Part shown: piece after piece, positions 2,050-14,911 of the stretch
How the letters are laid out: every line of letters begins with the position of its first letter
Numbering within the stretch: the stretch's first letter is position 1
DNA from: Clostridia bacterium
GTDB taxonomy: Bacteria; Bacillota; Clostridia; Oscillospirales; CAG-272
Assembly (NCBI GenBank): GCA_017556685.1
Contig: JAFYMH010000018.1
Coordinates: 1-40,023 of the forward strand
DNA: 40,023 nucleotides
Reading direction: 5' to 3'
Notes under the pieces: model-generated
What the model saw: the letters and a program-made list of their open reading frames with translations, nothing else
Databases searched by the model: none
What the model was told of the DNA's origin: nothing
Program-made: the position numbers and the translations under genes

Positions 2050-2123
2050 GGCGCCATAGCCAAGCGGTAAGGCAGAGGTCTGCAAAACCTTCATCCCCGG
2101 TCCGATTCCGGGTGGCGCCTCCA
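2050..2123 (+). tRNA. tRNA-Cys (anticodon GCA), CCA encoded
   Basis: Acceptor GGCGCCA/TGGCGCC. Anticodon loop CTGCAAA with GCA. T loop TCCGATT region. Discriminator T, then CCA at 2121-2123. Confidence 0.9.
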
Positions 2124-2173
2124 GAGAACGAAGCATCCCTTTTGGGATGCTTTTTTCGTTCTCTGGAGGCGCC
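2114..2173. terminator. Bidirectional terminator embedded in a 60-bp palindrome that includes the tRNA-Cys 3-prime end
   Basis: GGCGCCTCCAGAGAACGAAGCATCCC-TTTT-GGGATGC(TTTT)TTCGTTCTCTGGAGGCGCC. Core stem GCATCCC/GGGATGC is followed by T6 on the + strand and by an A/T-rich run on the - strand. Confidence 0.75.
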
Positions 2174-2311
2174 ACTCCTTCATCGGACTTGGCTCTGTGC
2201 GCCTCGGCGCACAGAATCCGGTTCGCAGTCGCCGCGCAGAGCGCGTCGAGCTCGCTCGAACGCGGCAAGCGAGCGCCTACTCGCCAAAGGCGAGATACCG
2301 GGGCAAAAGCC

Positions 2312-2689
2312 TTAGGATCTCGCTTTTTTCATCCTCTCGTATTCCGCCTCCAACCTGCAAAGCATCGCCTTCATTTCGCCGACCCCGCCGTCCCTTGAAA
2401 CGACCGAAAGAACCTTGCCCGCCATGCTCTTGATTTCGCTTGAGGTGAGTCCTGCCGTATTCCCGTGCACGTCGAGGCGCTCCATGGATTGAATCTCTCC
2501 GAGCCAATACGTATGATACTCCTTTGATCTTCCGTACACCGAGCGCCGAGACGCCTCGGTTGTGACCGTCTGCCATTTGCGGTGCGTTCGGTCTACGTAA
2601 AGATAATAGGAATACGACACGAACCACCACGCCGCCATTTTTGCAAGAAGCTCGCCTCCTGCAAAGGAAAAATTATGCCCGCTCTTCAT
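2312..2689 (-). CDS. Hypothetical protein (125 aa), third gene of a coupled three-gene operon
   Basis: ORF with strong SD AAAGGAGGGGAG 8 nt before the ATG at 2689. The track start at 2695 is a TTG overlapping the upstream stop. I recognise no family. Sequence is aromatic-rich near the N-terminus (WWFVSYSYYLYV). Confidence 0.6.
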   Translation of the reverse strand: MKSGHNFSFAGGELLAKMAAWWFVSYSYYLYVDRTHRKWQTVTTEASRRSVYGRSKEYHTYWLGEIQSMERLDVHGNTAGLTSSEIKSMAGKVLSVVSRDGGVGEMKAMLCRLEAEYERMKKARS

Positions 2690-2691
2690 AA

Positions 2692-3099
2692 TCAAAGCTC
2701 CCCTCCTTTGAACGTCCGAGCCCCCTCTTCTGCCAAAAGCTCCGAGATCCTGCGGCGGAAGACGTCAAGTTCTCCGTAAATATTGACCGGCTCCTCAAGA
2801 AAATACAAAACGCCGAACATTCCGTCGAGGCGGAACAGAGGGTGAAGGCGCTCGGCGTCGAGCGAAACGCCGTTTTGTAAAAAGATCTCAAGGATCTCTT
2901 CCTTCCATTTGAGGTACCTCTGCCGAATCTCAAGCAGGCGCTCACTCGGCGTATCAGAGCGGATGACCTCGTTATACAGACGGATCACCCCGTAGTGATC
3001 GGAGAACGAGGGGTCAAAGCCAAACAGCCCCTGTAGCCGCTCGCTCACCCTATCGTGCTCCTTGATCGCCTCCGAAAATTCTTCAAATGACAGACTCAT
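2692..3099 (-). CDS. Hypothetical, mostly helical protein (135 aa), second gene of the operon
   Basis: ATG at 3099 overlaps the upstream stop (ATGA). SD GGAGGG lies just upstream. No recognisable motif. Confidence 0.6.
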   Translation of the reverse strand: MSLSFEEFSEAIKEHDRVSERLQGLFGFDPSFSDHYGVIRLYNEVIRSDTPSERLLEIRQRYLKWKEEILEIFLQNGVSLDAERLHPLFRLDGMFGVLYFLEEPVNIYGELDVFRRRISELLAEEGARTFKGGEL

Positions 3100-3443
3100 T
3101 TTTCCCTCCGCAGCTTCTTATTAAGGACGGCGGTGACCCGATCGGCAAGCTCCCTTCTCTCGGACTCGCTTTTCCCCTTGGCACAGAGAATTGCCTCTTG
3201 CACGAGGTGCACCTCGTCCAAAGAAAACACCCTTTGCTCCATAAAAAAGCCCTTTGCCGTTTTCCTTATGGGATAGCCCATCGCACGAAGAACCTTGATA
3301 TTTCTGCACACCGTTTTCCGATCGCAGGGATAACTGTCGGATATCGCCTCGGCGATCTTCGTTTGCGTCATGGGTCGGCTCTCGTCGCTCTCGTTGCTAA
3401 GCACGTTCAGCACCCACAGGATCAGTTGCTTTTTAGATTGCAT
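3096..3443 (-). CDS. Small winged-HTH transcriptional regulator resembling the N-terminal HTH module of YafY/WYL-type regulators but lacking a WYL domain
   Basis: PMTQTKIAEAISDSYPCDRKTVCRNIKVLRAMGYPI is an HTH-like segment. FSLDEVHLVQEAILCAKGKSESERRELADRV resembles the linker helix of that family. I prefer the ATG at 3443 (GGAGGA 7 nt upstream); the track start is 3458. Confidence 0.65.
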   Translation of the reverse strand: MQSKKQLILWVLNVLSNESDESRPMTQTKIAEAISDSYPCDRKTVCRNIKVLRAMGYPIRKTAKGFFMEQRVFSLDEVHLVQEAILCAKGKSESERRELADRVTAVLNKKLRREK

Positions 3444-3476
3444 CGTGTCGTCCTCCATCTATAGGATAGCATATCG

Positions 3477-3505
3477 ATTGTACCAAAAACCGCCCTTTCT
3501 GTCAA
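3477..3505 (-). promoter_or_regulatory. Consensus sigma-A promoter of the three-gene operon
   Basis: On the minus strand: TTGACA (3505-3500), 17-nt spacer, TGgTACAAT (extended -10, TACAAT at 3482-3477). Confidence 0.75.
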
Positions 3506-8490: not shown

Positions 8491-8719
8491 GGGGCTCGCT
8501 TGATTTCGAGCAGAAATCGTCGGCTGACGAGCGAGAGGCGTACATGCGTACGCCGAGTGAGGAAACGGCGATAGAACGAAAAACGATAAAAAGGAGAAAA
8601 CCGTAAGGTTTTCCACCTTAAAAAACAGCATACGCAAAGAAAAAGACAGGTGCTACGCCTACGCGAAGCACCTATCTTCTTTGTTTTTCGTTCGGTTATG
8701 CCGAAAGGAAGCAGCCCCT
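8491..8719. repeat. Right copy of the approximately 230-bp inverted repeat
   Basis: Reverse complement of 6694-6924. The 50-nt identical core is at 8564-8613. The outer end overlaps the stop codon of the PII-like gene by 2 nt. Confidence 0.9.
8636..8673 (-). terminator. Terminator inside the right repeat (serves the PII-like gene operon)
   Basis: On the minus strand: AGGTGCTTCGC-GTAG-GCGTAGCACCT followed by a T-rich run. Confidence 0.7.
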
Positions 8720-12754: not shown

Positions 12755-12769
12755 GAAGGAGCTCCTCAA

Positions 12770-14911
12770 ATGGAAAAGAAGCAGATCCGAATCGCCCTTG
12801 CCGGAAACCCGAACTCCGGAAAAACGACCCTTTTCAACGCCCTGACCGGCTCAAGTCAGTACGTCGGGAACTGGCCGGGCGTAACGGTTGAAAAAAAGGA
12901 GGGGCGGCTCCGCCGTCACCCGGACGTCGTCGTCACCGATCTGCCCGGTATCTACTCTCTGTCCCCCTACACGCCCGAGGAGATCGTCGCAAGACGCTAT
13001 CTCGTCGGGGAGCGCCCCGATGCGATCCTGAACATCGTGGACGGTACCAATCTTGAAAGAAACCTCTATCTGACGACCCAGCTGACCGAGCTCGGGATCC
13101 CCGTCGTCATCGTCATCAACATGATGGACGTCGTGCGCAAGCGCCGCGACGAGATCGACACCCTTAGGCTCTCCCGTGCGCTCGGTTGCCCGATCTTTGA
13201 GGCGTCGGCGCTCAAAAACGACGGCGTTTTCGAGGCGGCAGAGGCGGCGATCGAGGCGGCAAGGGGGGGCGCATCGCTTCCCTGCCACAACTTCCGAGGG
13301 GTCGTTGAGCACGCACTGGCACATATCGAGGAGGCCGCCGTACATCACCTGCCGCTTGAAAGACAGCGCTGGTACGCCATCAAGCTCTTTGAGCGCGACG
13401 AGCGGGTCTTGGGGGAGCTTGCCCTTTCCCCCGAGGTGCTTTCGCATCTTGAAGGGGATATCCGCTGTGCCGAGCGCGAATGTGATGACGACTCCGAGAG
13501 CATCATCACCAACGAGCGCTACGACTACATCGCCTCGGTTCTAAAGGACTGCTACAAAAAGCGGAGCACGATCGAAAGAACGGTCTCGGACAAGATCGAT
13601 CGCATCGTCACGAACCGCTTTGCCGCCATTCCGATTTTTGCGGCGATCATGTTCCTCGTTTACTACGTTTCGGTATCAACCCTCGGAACGATGGCAACCG
13701 ACTGGACAAATGACGTTCTCTTCGGGAAATGGATCCTGCCGAGCCTCTCGACGGCTCTTGACGCGATCGGATGCTGGCCGTGGCTGCGCTCGCTTATCGT
13801 CGACGGCATCGTCGGCGGCGTCGGCGCGGTGCTCGGCTTCGTGCCGCAGATGCTCATTCTCTTTGCCATGCTCGGCTTCCTTGAGGCGTCGGGCTATATG
13901 TCGCGCGTTGCCTTCGTGCTCGACCGCGTGTTCCGCCGCCTCGGACTGTCGGGAAAATCCTTTATCCCGATGCTCGTCGGCGTCGGCTGCAGCGTTCCGG
14001 GGATCATGGCAAGCCGCACCATTGAAAGCGAGCGCGACCGCCGCATGACGGTCATGACGACGAGCTTTATCCCCTGCGGAGCAAAGCTTCCTCTGATTGG
14101 TCTTGTCGCAGGCGTTGCCTTCGGGGGAGAGTCGGCGCTCGTTTCGACCGCCGCATACCTGATCGGCGTTGCCGCCGTTCTTTTCAGTGGCCTGATCCTG
14201 AAAAAGACAAAACGCTTTGAGGGGGATCCCGCGCCCTTTATCATGGAGCTTCCCTCCTATCATCTTCCGACGGCAAAGAACCTCCTTCTGACGACCTGGG
14301 AGAGGGGATGGTCGTTTATCAAAAAGGCGGGAACCGTCATTCTGCTTTCCACTGTCGTGCTCTGGTTCCTGCAAAGCTTCGGCTTTGAGGGAGGCTTCGG
14401 ATGGGTGGACGATGCAAGCCACTCGCTCCTTGCCTTGATCGGCAGACCCCTTGCCCTTCTCTTCATCCCGCTCGGCTTCGGCTTCTGGCAGGCGGCGGTC
14501 GCCTCTCTCACGGGACTGCTCGCCAAGGAAAACGTCGTTGCCACCTTCGGCGTTCTTTACGGAGCCGCCGAGGTCGCCGAAAACGGCGCCGAGATCTGGG
14601 GGGCGCTCGCCGGGGATTTCGGAAGCTCGGCAGCGGCTCTCTCCTTCCTCGTCTTCAACCTGCTCTGCGCGCCCTGCTTTGCGGCGATGGGTGCGATCCG
14701 CCGCGAGATGAACAGCGCCTCCTGGACCGCCTTTGCGATCGGCTATCAGTGCCTGCTTGCCTATGCGACGTCGCTCGTCGTCTATCAGCTCGGCACGCTT
14801 ATGACCTCGGGCTTTGCTCTCGTTCACCTCCCCGCTCTGATCGGCGCCGTCGCCGTCCTTGGCGTTGCCGTCTGGCTCCTCGTTCGCCGTCCCGAGCACA
14901 AGAAGGGGTGA
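12770..14911 (+). CDS. feoB: Ferrous iron transport protein B
   Basis: N-terminal G domain GNPNSGKTTLFNALTG and DLPGIYSL, followed by a polytopic membrane domain. 713 aa. Confidence 0.95.
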   Translation: MEKKQIRIALAGNPNSGKTTLFNALTGSSQYVGNWPGVTVEKKEGRLRRHPDVVVTDLPGIYSLSPYTPEEIVARRYLVGERPDAILNIVDGTNLERNLYLTTQLTELGIPVVIVINMMDVVRKRRDEIDTLRLSRALGCPIFEASALKNDGVFEAAEAAIEAARGGASLPCHNFRGVVEHALAHIEEAAVHHLPLERQRWYAIKLFERDERVLGELALSPEVLSHLEGDIRCAERECDDDSESIITNERYDYIASVLKDCYKKRSTIERTVSDKIDRIVTNRFAAIPIFAAIMFLVYYVSVSTLGTMATDWTNDVLFGKWILPSLSTALDAIGCWPWLRSLIVDGIVGGVGAVLGFVPQMLILFAMLGFLEASGYMSRVAFVLDRVFRRLGLSGKSFIPMLVGVGCSVPGIMASRTIESERDRRMTVMTTSFIPCGAKLPLIGLVAGVAFGGESALVSTAAYLIGVAAVLFSGLILKKTKRFEGDPAPFIMELPSYHLPTAKNLLLTTWERGWSFIKKAGTVILLSTVVLWFLQSFGFEGGFGWVDDASHSLLALIGRPLALLFIPLGFGFWQAAVASLTGLLAKENVVATFGVLYGAAEVAENGAEIWGALAGDFGSSAAALSFLVFNLLCAPCFAAMGAIRREMNSASWTAFAIGYQCLLAYATSLVVYQLGTLMTSGFALVHLPALIGAVAVLGVAVWLLVRRPEHKKG

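What the first reader, a model, noticed from the sequence alone, without database searches (positions are those of the whole stretch)
2312..3505. Translationally coupled operon of an HTH regulator and two unknown small proteins beside tRNA-Cys
Three minus-strand genes of 115, 135 and 125 aa are coupled. The first junction is an ATGA overlap. At the second, the ATG lies 2 nt after the stop with a GGAGG site inside the upstream gene. The operon is driven by a perfect TTGACA-17-TGgTACAAT promoter.

The first product looks like the isolated winged-HTH module of YafY/WYL-type regulators, the family that includes regulators of several phage-defence loci, but it has no WYL sensor domain. I could not assign the two downstream products to any family. 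One is all-helical and the other has an aromatic-rich N-terminus. The locus sits next to a tRNA gene, which is a typical accessory-DNA location. Candidate roles are a toxin-antitoxin-like, immunity or small defence/regulatory module.

This is the best candidate in the window for an uncharacterised protein system, but the evidence is only gene organisation.
Basis: partly seen in the sequence, partly recalled or inferred. Interest (0 to 1): 0.65.

Follow-up and report, generated by a model that had tools for sequence, protein, structure and literature searches.

The report
Regulator pair heading swappable defence genes
Three small coupled genes next to a tRNA are real and conserved; the first two (a DNA-binding regulator cut off before its usual sensor domain, plus a partner protein with no known fold) form a fixed pair in gut Clostridia that sits in front of different third genes, several of them known anti-phage genes, so the pair looks like a portable control unit for accessory immunity genes, though no function has been tested.

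Summary
On the minus strand lie gA (3096-3443, 115 aa), gB (2692-3099, 135 aa, ATGA overlap) and gC (2312-2689, 125 aa, ATG 2 nt after the stop), behind TTGACA-17-TACAAT.

The unit of conservation is the gA-gB pair, not the trio. Across about a dozen genomic contexts the pair is followed by at least eight unrelated genes: gC, the Tiamat gene TmtA, an HNH nuclease and several unknowns. It is often near other defence genes, tRNAs or serine recombinases.

- gA matches the wHTH-plus-linker module of wHTH-WYL-WCX regulators (hhalign 98.3%) and ends where the WYL domain would start.
- gB folds confidently (pLDDT 90.8) but has no relative in PDB, BFVD, Pfam, NCBIfam or PADLOC. Its family has only 51 clusters among 1.84 billion representative proteins.
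- gC has no detectable relatives and was seen only with gA-gB.
- An 18-bp box, GGGCGRTTTTTGGTACAA, overlaps the promoter in every locus, including a prophage that carries only a gA-like gene.

Best reading (about 0.4): gA is an autorepressor, gB is its partner replacing the missing sensor, and gC is one payload. Rivals are a tripartite toxin-antitoxin, a two-gene effector, or an ordinary operon. Nothing was tested functionally.

The parts
3500..3505 (-). -35 hexamer TTGACA of the operon promoter
   Evidence: Promoter scan. TTGAC(A/T) is conserved at this position in most related loci.
3478..3495 (-). Conserved 18-bp box GGGCGGTTTTTGGTACAA covering the promoter spacer and most of the -10 hexamer; inferred gA operator
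   Evidence: It occurs once in the window at up to 3 mismatches, against 0.04 expected by chance. There is one exact copy per locus in 31 loci, always 35-55 nt upstream of gA. It is kept in prophage contigs whose gA-like gene is only 45% identical, and near-copies remain in loci where gA is deleted. Binding was not tested.
3477..3482 (-). -10 hexamer TACAAT with upstream TG (extended -10)
3451..3456 (-). Ribosome-binding site GGAGGA of gA, 7 nt before the ATG at 3443
   Evidence: Sequence. AGGAGG occupies the same position in homologous loci.
3096..3443 (-). gA, 115 aa, basic (pI 9.7) winged-helix regulator. It equals the N-terminal wHTH-plus-linker module of wHTH-WYL-WCX regulators and lacks the WYL and WCX domains.
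   Evidence: HTH_11 is hit in all 11 family members. PADLOC WYL model, N-terminal part, E 2.4e-4. tblastn to a Butyrivibrio WYL-domain protein gives 28.6% identity over 96% of gA, E 1e-7. hhalign probability 98.3%. That target carries Pfam WYL and WCX domains downstream of the aligned part.
2692..3099 (-). gB, 135 aa, acidic (pI 4.9) protein of unknown family and unmatched fold (helix, hairpin, helix, helix, hairpin, helix); constant partner of gA
   Evidence: AlphaFold2 mean pLDDT 90.8 and pTM 0.83 from a 53-sequence alignment. Foldseek best E is 4.2 against PDB and 0.84 against BFVD. No hit in Pfam, NCBIfam, PADLOC or the PDB sequence search. At least 170 clusters at 90% identity and only 51 clusters at 50% identity among 1.84 billion representatives.
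2312..2689 (-). gC, 125 aa, basic (pI 9.5) protein with an invariant aromatic/His-rich N-terminal half (HxFSFxGG...AWWFVSYSYY...DRTH...YHxYWL); the third gene in one clade of the module
   Evidence: 13 homologues at 48-94% identity; 35 invariant columns. No family or structure match. The model is low confidence, pLDDT 62. No TM-like segment: maximum 19-residue Kyte-Doolittle mean 0.93. Seen only next to gA-gB. In L054 a 95-aa version follows an HNH gene inserted after gB.
2112..2175 (.). Long hairpin between tRNA-Cys and the operon's 3' end: a 21-nt perfect inverted repeat whose left arm includes the last 12 nt of tRNA-Cys. Probable bidirectional terminator.
   Evidence: minimum free energy -72 kcal/mol, z -13.9. 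The inner stem plus T-run was found as a terminator-like site.
2050..2123 (+). tRNA-Cys(GCA), convergent neighbour
   Evidence: ARAGORN; Rfam.

Best explanation
The locus is an autoregulated accessory operon built from a portable two-protein head and one interchangeable payload.

gA is a dimer-type winged-helix repressor derived from the wHTH-WYL-WCX regulator family, but truncated just before the ligand-sensing WYL domain. It is inferred to bind the conserved 18-bp box that overlaps its own promoter.

gB is translated in step with gA through the ATGA overlap. It is an acidic protein with an unmatched alpha/beta fold. It is inferred to be gA's obligate partner and to supply in trans what the missing WYL-WCX part supplies in cis: signal sensing and/or control of gA's DNA binding, as a co-repressor or anti-repressor.

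Whatever lies downstream in the same transcription unit is the payload. In this window it is gC, an uncharacterised basic protein. In relatives it is the Tiamat gene TmtA, an HNH nuclease or other small unknown proteins.

Shown: gene structure, coupling, promoter, homology of gA, the unmatched fold of gB, constancy of the pair, variability of the follower, conservation of the box, and defence-gene neighbourhoods.

Inferred: DNA binding to the box, gA-gB contact, signal sensing, and any anti-phage role of gC.
For: - The pair is constant and the follower varies. HMM scans of 56 loci find gA and gB adjacent wherever both could be seen, except in two lineages. The followers are mutually unrelated by BLASTP: gC, a 96-aa protein, a 249-aa protein, a 245-aa protein, a 123-aa protein, a 166-aa protein resembling the C-terminus of PDC-S57, an HNH nuclease (271 aa) and TmtA (1510 aa).
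- Followers are packed tightly. TmtA starts 4 nt after the gB stop (PADLOC E 5.6e-263). gC starts 2 nt after the stop or overlaps it.
- gA equals the wHTH-plus-linker of a verified wHTH-WYL-WCX protein. That family is known to repress and co-localise with defence systems (PMC9122601, PMC11662680).
- The 18-bp box occurs once per locus and overlaps the promoter. Promoter spacers are not normally conserved, yet this one persists while the proteins diverge to 45-65% identity, and it is also present in prophage contigs. The gA recognition-helix region CDRKTVxRNIK is invariant.
- Defence genes lie within a few kb in about 6 of about 11 contexts: TmtA, SRA/mREase, PDC-S57-like, PDC-S11/DUF4268, TIR-NLR, PDC-S27 (E 4e-57), PDC-M37B, and NOV_C with two DNA methylases.
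- gB without gA still keeps a recognisable near-copy of the box and the promoter (L019, L040). A toxin that needs gA for neutralisation would not be expected to survive this.
- A two-protein regulator attached to immune operons has a precedent in CapH-CapP (bioRxiv 10.1101/2022.04.27.489752).
Against: - There is no experimental or structural evidence that gA binds the box or that gA contacts gB. Complex prediction could not be run.
- The exhaustive profile search found no protein in which a wHTH is fused to a gB domain, so there is no Rosetta-stone support.
- The box is not an obvious inverted repeat of the kind BrxR binds. Part of its conservation could simply reflect promoter strength (TG-extended -10 elements).
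- In the human-gut lineage the inserted cassettes bring their own promoter, so not all followers need be controlled by the pair.
- In the window itself no known defence gene is adjacent. The flanks are a PfkB-family kinase, a phosphodiesterase and a GDSL lipase. GC content is only slightly below the flanks.
- gB occurs alone in two lineages, so it may have a function of its own.
Confidence: 0.4

Rival explanations
1. Tripartite toxin-antitoxin or abortive-infection module of the regulator-antitoxin-toxin type, as in paaR-paaA-parE or omega-epsilon-zeta. gA represses the operon, acidic gB neutralises basic gC, and gC is the toxin or effector.
For: Three small, translationally coupled genes stand behind one probably autoregulated promoter. 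The charges fit the usual pattern: gB pI 4.9, gC pI 9.5. gB evolves faster than gA and gC (44-47% identity against 62-68% and 64-67% in the same loci), as antitoxins often do. gC was never seen without gB. The module moves between genomic contexts.
Against: gB is equally conserved in front of at least seven unrelated followers and also stands alone, which a cognate antitoxin would not do. In L054 an HNH gene separates gB from gC. Neither gB nor gC matches any toxin or antitoxin family or fold. Toxicity is untested.
Confidence: 0.2
2. gA-gB is itself a small two-gene defence or addiction system, a regulator plus an effector with an unmatched fold. It simply lives in defence islands and mobile-element cargo regions. 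The neighbouring genes, including gC, are independent residents.
For: The pair sits among defence genes and next to serine recombinases or tRNAs. The cassettes inserted right after gB carry their own promoter. gB has an invariant polar cluster (R21, N29, N34, H35, Y36, Y42, N43, T50, D52, R59) that could be an active or binding site. gB survives without gA.
Against: gC or TmtA start 2-4 nt after, or overlap, the gB stop, which argues for one transcription and translation unit. gC is found only with the pair. No catalytic fold was recognised in gB. The gB family is tiny and restricted to Clostridia, and gB was not found in phage or plasmid collections.
Confidence: 0.2
3. An ordinary lineage-specific chromosomal operon, for example a stress or metabolic regulator with two small accessory proteins, unrelated to phage defence. 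The defence neighbours elsewhere would be coincidental features of variable regions.
For: In this species the trio is present in every strain contig that shares the identical PfkB gene and extends far enough to show it. There is no recombinase, att repeat or known defence gene in the window. GC content is near the host level. No gB or gC was found in the viral collections searched, and no gB in the plasmid collection.
Against: The same cassette sits in at least ten unrelated flanks in different Clostridia. A gA-like gene with the same box lies in a prophage cargo region next to an HNH gene 40% identical to the one following gA-gB in L054. Defence genes recur in about half of the contexts.
Confidence: 0.15

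Closest known systems
wHTH-WYL-WCX regulators of defence systems (BrxR, CapW; the YafY/PafBC/DriD family)
   Same: gA is homologous to their N-terminal wHTH plus the following helices. It is the first gene of the operon it presumably represses. The pair co-localises with diverse defence genes, as described for BrxR homologues (PMC9122601).
   Different: gA stops where the WYL domain begins. There is no WYL and no WCX domain in gA or gB, and Foldseek of gB finds none of the solved BrxR, CapW, PafBC or DriD structures. A separate protein of unrelated fold is always encoded next to gA. The conserved promoter box is not a clear inverted repeat.
CapH-CapP and ImmR-ImmA / DdrO-IrrE two-protein regulator modules
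   Same: The logic is the same: a small DNA-binding repressor and a co-transcribed partner form a portable module in front of immune operons or mobile-element genes (bioRxiv 10.1101/2022.04.27.489752). Some gA-gB modules sit beside recombinases, as immR-immA does beside int (the immR-immA gene order is from my own knowledge).
   Different: There is no homology. gA is a winged helix of the WYL-regulator type, not an XRE HTH. gB has no metallopeptidase domain or HExxH motif (sequence; Pfam).
Three-component toxin-antitoxin operons (paaR-paaA-parE, omega-epsilon-zeta)
   Same: Gene number, sizes and coupling match, with the regulator first and an acidic middle protein followed by a basic last protein.
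   Different: No sequence or fold relation to any known toxin or antitoxin was found. The middle gene is kept with unrelated last genes and also alone.
Tiamat (TmtA) and other PADLOC defence systems and candidates
   Same: In relative L018 the pair is directly followed by a full-length TmtA. Other relatives are followed by SRA/mREase, PDC-S57-like and HNH genes.
   Different: The window carries none of these. gB and gC match no PADLOC model.

Membership tests
wHTH-WYL-WCX regulators (BrxR/CapW/YafY type) | [quoted passage not shown] | tested here: met
   hhalign of the gA profile against Butyrivibrio WP_242662277 gives probability 98.3%, E 2e-14, over gA residues 3-112. tblastn E 1e-7. The gA HMM hits both WYL proteins of plasmid pCY186 at 1e-13 and 4e-16. 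PADLOC WYL model E 2.4e-4.
wHTH-WYL-WCX regulators (BrxR/CapW/YafY type) | WYL ligand-binding domain | tested here: not met
   gA ends at the position that precedes the WYL domain of its homologue (residues 157-230). No Pfam WYL hit in gA, gB or gC. The gB profile against the WYL protein gives probability 0.5%. Foldseek of gB finds no WYL structure.
wHTH-WYL-WCX regulators (BrxR/CapW/YafY type) | C-terminal WCX dimerisation domain | tested here: not met
   No Pfam WCX hit in any of the three proteins, whereas the homologue has one.
wHTH-WYL-WCX regulators (BrxR/CapW/YafY type) | Binds repeats in its own promoter and represses the downstream defence operon | not testable with these tools
   Only a conserved 18-bp box overlapping the promoter was found. 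Binding and repression need EMSA and reporter assays.
CapH-CapP / ImmR-ImmA type two-protein regulators | Partner is a Zn-metallopeptidase (HExxH, ImmA/IrrE family) that cleaves the repressor | tested here: not met
   gB has no Pfam or NCBIfam peptidase hit, no HExxH in its sequence, and no structural match.
CapH-CapP / ImmR-ImmA type two-protein regulators | Repressor and partner co-transcribed next to an immune system or mobile-element genes | tested here: met
   gA and gB overlap or are coupled in all loci. They are followed by or adjacent to TmtA, HNH, SRA/mREase, PDC genes and serine recombinases in relatives. This was not seen in the window itself.
Type II / tripartite toxin-antitoxin systems | A component homologous to a known toxin or antitoxin family | tested here: not met
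   No Pfam, NCBIfam, PADLOC or PHROG hit for gB or gC. No PDB sequence or fold match.
Type II / tripartite toxin-antitoxin systems | Strict pairing of toxin with its cognate antitoxin | tested here: inconclusive
   gC is always found with gB in about 12 contexts, but gB is often without gC and twice without gA.
Type II / tripartite toxin-antitoxin systems | Toxicity of one component relieved by another | not testable with these tools
   This needs expression experiments.
Known anti-phage systems (PADLOC-DB v2) | Match of the system's proteins to a defence-system model | tested here: not met
   Only gA gives weak hits, to the regulator models WYL and Csa3. gB and gC give none.

The most novel reading that the evidence does not exclude
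gA-gB is a previously undescribed two-protein sensor-repressor switch of gut Clostridia. A WYL-family DNA-binding head has lost its built-in sensor and works with a separately encoded protein of a new fold. The switch is a portable control cassette that mobile elements and defence islands place in front of interchangeable anti-phage effectors. On this reading gC, and the 96-, 123-, 245- and 249-aa followers, would be new effector families discoverable by using the pair as bait.
Probability: 0.3. Interest if true: 0.75.

Novelty: new variant of a known kind. Interest (0 to 1): 0.55.

Why it matters
Regulation of bacterial immune systems is much less understood than their effectors. The described regulator modules are BrxR/CapW, CapH-CapP and RptR, and those I know of were characterised in Proteobacteria.

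Here a WYL-family DNA-binding head is separated from any sensor domain and always paired with a protein of unmatched fold, in uncultured gut Clostridia. If the pair is a switch, it offers three things:
- a new sensing protein to study;
- a defined 18-bp operator;
- a bait for finding new payload genes, since at least five unknown follower families are already visible.

If instead the trio is a toxin-antitoxin or abortive-infection unit, gB and gC are new families. Either way the finding turns three hypothetical proteins into a testable module. The family is small and taxonomically narrow, which limits its general importance.

Tried and rejected
- **Family assignment of gB and gC.** Pfam, NCBIfam, PADLOC and PHROGs gave no credible hit. 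PDB sequence searches with single sequences and profiles gave none.
- **Fold matches.** Foldseek of the gB model against PDB and BFVD, and of the gC model against PDB, gave nothing below E 0.8. The gC model is low confidence, so its negative result means little.
- **gB as a diverged WYL/WCX domain.** Rejected by hhalign and Foldseek.
- **gB related to gC, or gC related to the 96-aa or 123-aa followers.** No relation found.
- **Rosetta-stone fusion of a wHTH with gB.** None among the 51 representative clusters. The longer relatives are internal repeats of the hairpin-helix unit, or gB fused to an unknown C-terminal domain.
- **gC as a membrane protein.** The aromatic stretch is not hydrophobic enough: maximum 19-residue Kyte-Doolittle mean 0.93.
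- **Phage or plasmid origin.** gB and gC are absent from IMG/VR, gC from INPHARED phages and gB from PLSDB plasmids. Only gA-like genes appear there.
- **Integrated island bounded by tRNA repeats in the window.** No direct copy of the tRNA-Cys 3' end and no recombinase.
- **Presence/absence polymorphism among strains sharing the identical PfkB gene.** The trio was present wherever the contig reached far enough; the only variation was an extra lipoprotein gene.
- **Scan of viral contigs with the 18-bp box.** This recovered the known prophage contigs, two chance hits inside tail-fibre genes and one site beside a phage integrase.
- **Literature searches for a described equivalent.** None found.
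Full report
**1. Observation**

- gA: the ORF runs 3096-3458, but every homologue starts at the second ATG (3443, MQSKKQLIL...). GGAGGA lies 7 nt upstream of it, so gA is 115 aa.
- gB: 2692-3099, 135 aa. Its start overlaps the gA stop as ATGA.
- gC: 2312-2689, 125 aa. It starts 2 nt after the gB stop, behind a GGAGG that lies inside gB.

A consensus scan finds TTGACA-17-TACAAT with an upstream TG at 3505-3477. tRNA-Cys(GCA) lies at 2050-2123 on the other strand. Against a relative whose proteins are 94-95% identical (L009), dN/dS is 0.27, 0.28 and 0.16 for gA, gB and gC, from few substitutions. A gut metatranscriptome holds a 304-nt contig over gB. This is weak evidence of transcription, because DNA carry-over cannot be excluded.

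**2. Conservation and the real unit**

A word-indexed protein search found only gB itself, but found 13 gC homologues at 48-94% identity. Their contigs all show the same three-gene cassette (113-115, 129-144 and 120-127 aa) in different flanks: TrkA/TrkH, RtcB, glyoxalase, tRNA-Met/Leu, and PfkB as in the window.

A profile of gB sequences taken from those loci then recovered at least 170 clusters. Neighbourhoods of diverse members, 15 metagenome loci, and HMM scans of 56 fetched loci show three things:

- gA and gB are adjacent and coupled everywhere, except in two lineages that keep gB alone.
- gC is present only in a subset.
- The gene after gB otherwise differs from locus to locus.

The followers seen are:
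- a full-length Tiamat protein TmtA, starting 4 nt after the gB stop (PADLOC E 5.6e-263; L018);
- a 96-aa protein (L021-25, L055/56);
- a 249-aa protein (L029-36);
- a 245-aa protein followed by a serine recombinase (L039);
- a 123-aa protein (L038);
- a 271-aa HNH nuclease followed by a 95-aa gC homologue (L054, E 2e-35);
- inserted cassettes encoding a protein like the C-terminus of PDC-S57, an SRA/methyl-directed restriction domain, and a DUF4268/PDC-S11 protein (L030, L031, L036).

These followers are mutually unrelated. gC was never seen away from gA-gB.

**3. Context**

Recognised or candidate defence genes lie within a few kb in about 6 of about 11 independent contexts:
- TmtA;
- TIR-NLR with a recombinase;
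- PDC-S27 ATPase (E 4e-57) with an HNH gene;
- PDC-M37B-like ATPase with a radical-SAM gene and a large helicase;
- NOV_C with two DNA methylases and an HTH gene.

tRNA genes flank the module in the window and in five other contexts. Serine recombinases flank it in three contexts.

In the human-gut lineage the AT-rich stretch right after the gB stop is an insertion point for 1.7 kb or more of cassettes, and these bring their own promoter.

gB and gC are absent from IMG/VR; gC is also absent from the INPHARED phage records and gB from the PLSDB plasmids. A gA-like gene (45% identical) sits in the cargo region of three prophage contigs, after the tail-fibre and holin genes. It is followed by an unrelated 162-aa gene, by an HNH gene 40% identical to the L054 one, and by a serine recombinase.

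In the window itself there is no recombinase, no direct repeat of the tRNA 3' end and no known defence gene. GC content is only slightly below the flanks. Every contig that shares the identical PfkB gene and extends far enough has the trio; one variant has an extra lipoprotein gene between gA and PfkB.

The carriers are uncultured Clostridia from ruminant, other animal and human guts. One MAG is labelled Bacteroidaceae, but the contig is only 5 kb.

**4. The three proteins**

*gA.* HTH_11 is hit in all 11 family members tested. tblastn finds a Butyrivibrio plasmid gene annotated as a WYL-domain protein (28.6% identity over 96% of gA, E 1e-7). hhalign of the gA profile against that protein gives probability 98.3%, E 2e-14, with gA 3-112 aligned to residues 23-132. 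Pfam places its WYL domain at 157-230 and its WCX domain at 266-334. So gA is the wHTH-plus-linker module of this regulator family and ends exactly where the sensor begins. The recognition-helix region CDRKTVxRNIK is invariant. Its pI is 9.7.

*gB.* AlphaFold2 with 53 sequences gives pLDDT 90.8 and pTM 0.83, with the order helix, hairpin, helix, helix, hairpin, helix. Foldseek finds nothing in PDB (best E 4.2) or BFVD (best E 0.84). Sequence and profile searches find nothing. Reading all 1.84 billion representative proteins with the profile gives only 51 clusters. None is fused to a wHTH. A group of proteins of about 290 aa repeats the hairpin-helix unit two or three times, and two proteins add an unknown C-terminal domain. 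gB is acidic (pI 4.9). It carries an invariant stretch, GFNPxTSNHYGxIxLYN, over the first hairpin.

*gC.* It has 35 invariant columns, concentrated in an aromatic/His-rich N-terminal half. The model is poor (pLDDT 62, four helices, N-terminus below 50), so the empty Foldseek result carries little weight. It has no membrane-like segment, and its pI is 9.5.

**5. Cis element**

Upstream regions of 18 distinct loci share TTGAC(A/T), then about 4 nt, then GGGCGRTTTTTGGTACAAT, then about 6 nt, then a second TG-extended -10-like box.

The 18-bp core GGGCGRTTTTTGGTACAA has these properties:
- It occurs once in the window (3478-3495), against 0.04 expected even at three mismatches.
- It occurs exactly once in each of 31 loci, always 35-55 nt before gA.
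- It is kept in the prophage contigs, where the gA-like protein is only 45% identical.
- Recognisable near-copies remain in the two lineages where gA has been deleted and gB starts directly behind the promoter.

A conserved promoter spacer is not explained by sigma-factor recognition, so I read the box as the gA operator. This is an inference. It is not an obvious inverted repeat.

**6. Interpretation**

The best-supported model (confidence about 0.4) has three parts.
- gA is an autorepressor acting at the box.
- gB is its co-translated partner and replaces the missing WYL-WCX sensor and dimerisation part.
- The pair serves as a portable regulatory head for accessory genes, often anti-phage genes. 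gC is the payload in this clade.

The model resembles BrxR/CapW in ancestry and placement (PMC9122601, PMC11662680). It resembles CapH-CapP in being a two-protein module (bioRxiv 10.1101/2022.04.27.489752). It is a member of neither family: the WYL, WCX and metallopeptidase features were tested and not met.

Rivals:
- **Regulator-antitoxin-toxin operon** (0.2). It fits the coupling, the charges and the fast evolution of gB. It does not fit gB keeping company with unrelated followers or standing alone.
- **gA-gB as a two-gene effector system whose neighbours are independent** (0.2). It fits the own-promoter cassettes and the solitary gB. It does not fit the 2-4-nt junctions to gC and TmtA.
- **Ordinary lineage-specific operon** (0.15). 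It fits the quiet context of the window. It does not fit the module's many contexts and its prophage relatives.

**7. Novelty and limits**

I found no description of this pair in PADLOC v2, Pfam, NCBIfam, PHROGs or the papers searched. I rate it a new variant of a known kind, namely defence-associated regulator modules. It includes one protein of unmatched fold and at least one new payload family.

The limits are:
- Only about a dozen contexts were examined.
- Nothing was tested for binding, interaction, toxicity or protection.
- The family is small and confined to Clostridia.

Noticed in passing
window 2112-2175: A 21-nt perfect inverted repeat (2112-2132 and 2155-2175). Its left arm includes the last 12 nt of tRNA-Cys. 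Together with an inner terminator hairpin it forms a stem of about 30 bp (minimum free energy -72 kcal/mol, z -13.9). It is probably a bidirectional terminator shared by the tRNA and the operon, but an inverted copy of a tRNA 3' end is unusual.
   Followed up: partly
window 12755-12843: ARAGORN calls an 89-nt tRNA-Pro(CGG) on the minus strand. The Rfam tRNA model does not reach its gathering score there. It also overlaps the start of a long plus-strand ORF (12770-14911). It is probably a false positive.
   Followed up: partly
L029-L036 (human-gut metagenome contigs), directly after gB; e.g. L031 8388-10088: The AT-rich stretch right after the gB stop is an insertion hotspot. It is empty in L029/L032/L034/L035. 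In L031/L036 it holds 1.7 kb encoding a PDC-S57-like 166-aa protein, an SRA/mREase 122-aa protein and a 151-aa protein. L030 holds a longer set that includes DUF4268/PDC-S11. The insert carries its own promoter, and no clear flanking repeats were seen.
   Followed up: partly
L021 versus L022, after position 8713: Two contigs are identical through gA, gB and the 96-aa gene and then diverge. L021 continues into tRNA-Asn and an rRNA operon. L022 continues into a large minus-strand cluster: an RNase III-like gene, a radical-SAM gene (weak pVip-like hit), a PDC-M37B-like AAA ATPase, 366-aa and 739-aa unknowns, and a 1541-aa AAA_11/AAA_12 helicase. This looks like an uncharacterised defence island.
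   Followed up: partly
L018 5332-14355 (NCBI GCA_965356845.1): A possible small mobile element: RVT_1 reverse transcriptase, TnpV, gA, gB, TmtA and a large serine recombinase, ending at tRNA-Leu.
   Followed up: no
P0159-P0173 and P0134-P0136 (hits): Distant gB relatives of about 290 aa contain two or three copies of the hairpin-helix unit (consensus roughly YxLYNxxIxxxTxxxxIxEI). P0135 and P0136 fuse a gB domain to an unknown C-terminal domain with a (Y/H)VCSQWW motif. The same VCSQW motif occurs in the PDC-S57-like 166-aa cassette protein of L031.
   Followed up: partly
L023 2825-3232 (minus strand): A second, divergent gA-like wHTH (135 aa; HTH_11 E 2.4e-7; gA HMM E 2e-18) lies back to back with the gA-gB module. 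It is followed by a 631-aa membrane protein, so the gA family also pairs with partners other than gB.
   Followed up: no
L047 986-1468 (also L045, L048): Strains with the identical PfkB gene differ by a 160-aa lipoprotein gene (signal peptide with an LVGC lipobox) inserted between the gA promoter region and PfkB.
   Followed up: partly
L059 1253-1270 (IMG/VR contig): An exact copy of the 18-bp box, followed by a TG-extended -10 and a 39-aa hydrophobic ORF, lies about 140 nt from the start of a phage tyrosine integrase. No gA-like gene is in view.
   Followed up: no
L029 8424-9173 and relatives: The 249-aa protein that follows gA-gB in the human-gut lineage has no hit in Pfam, PADLOC or NCBIfam. 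It contains a VTVGINPS motif that, from memory only, resembles uracil-DNA-glycosylase-superfamily motifs. This was not tested.
   Followed up: no
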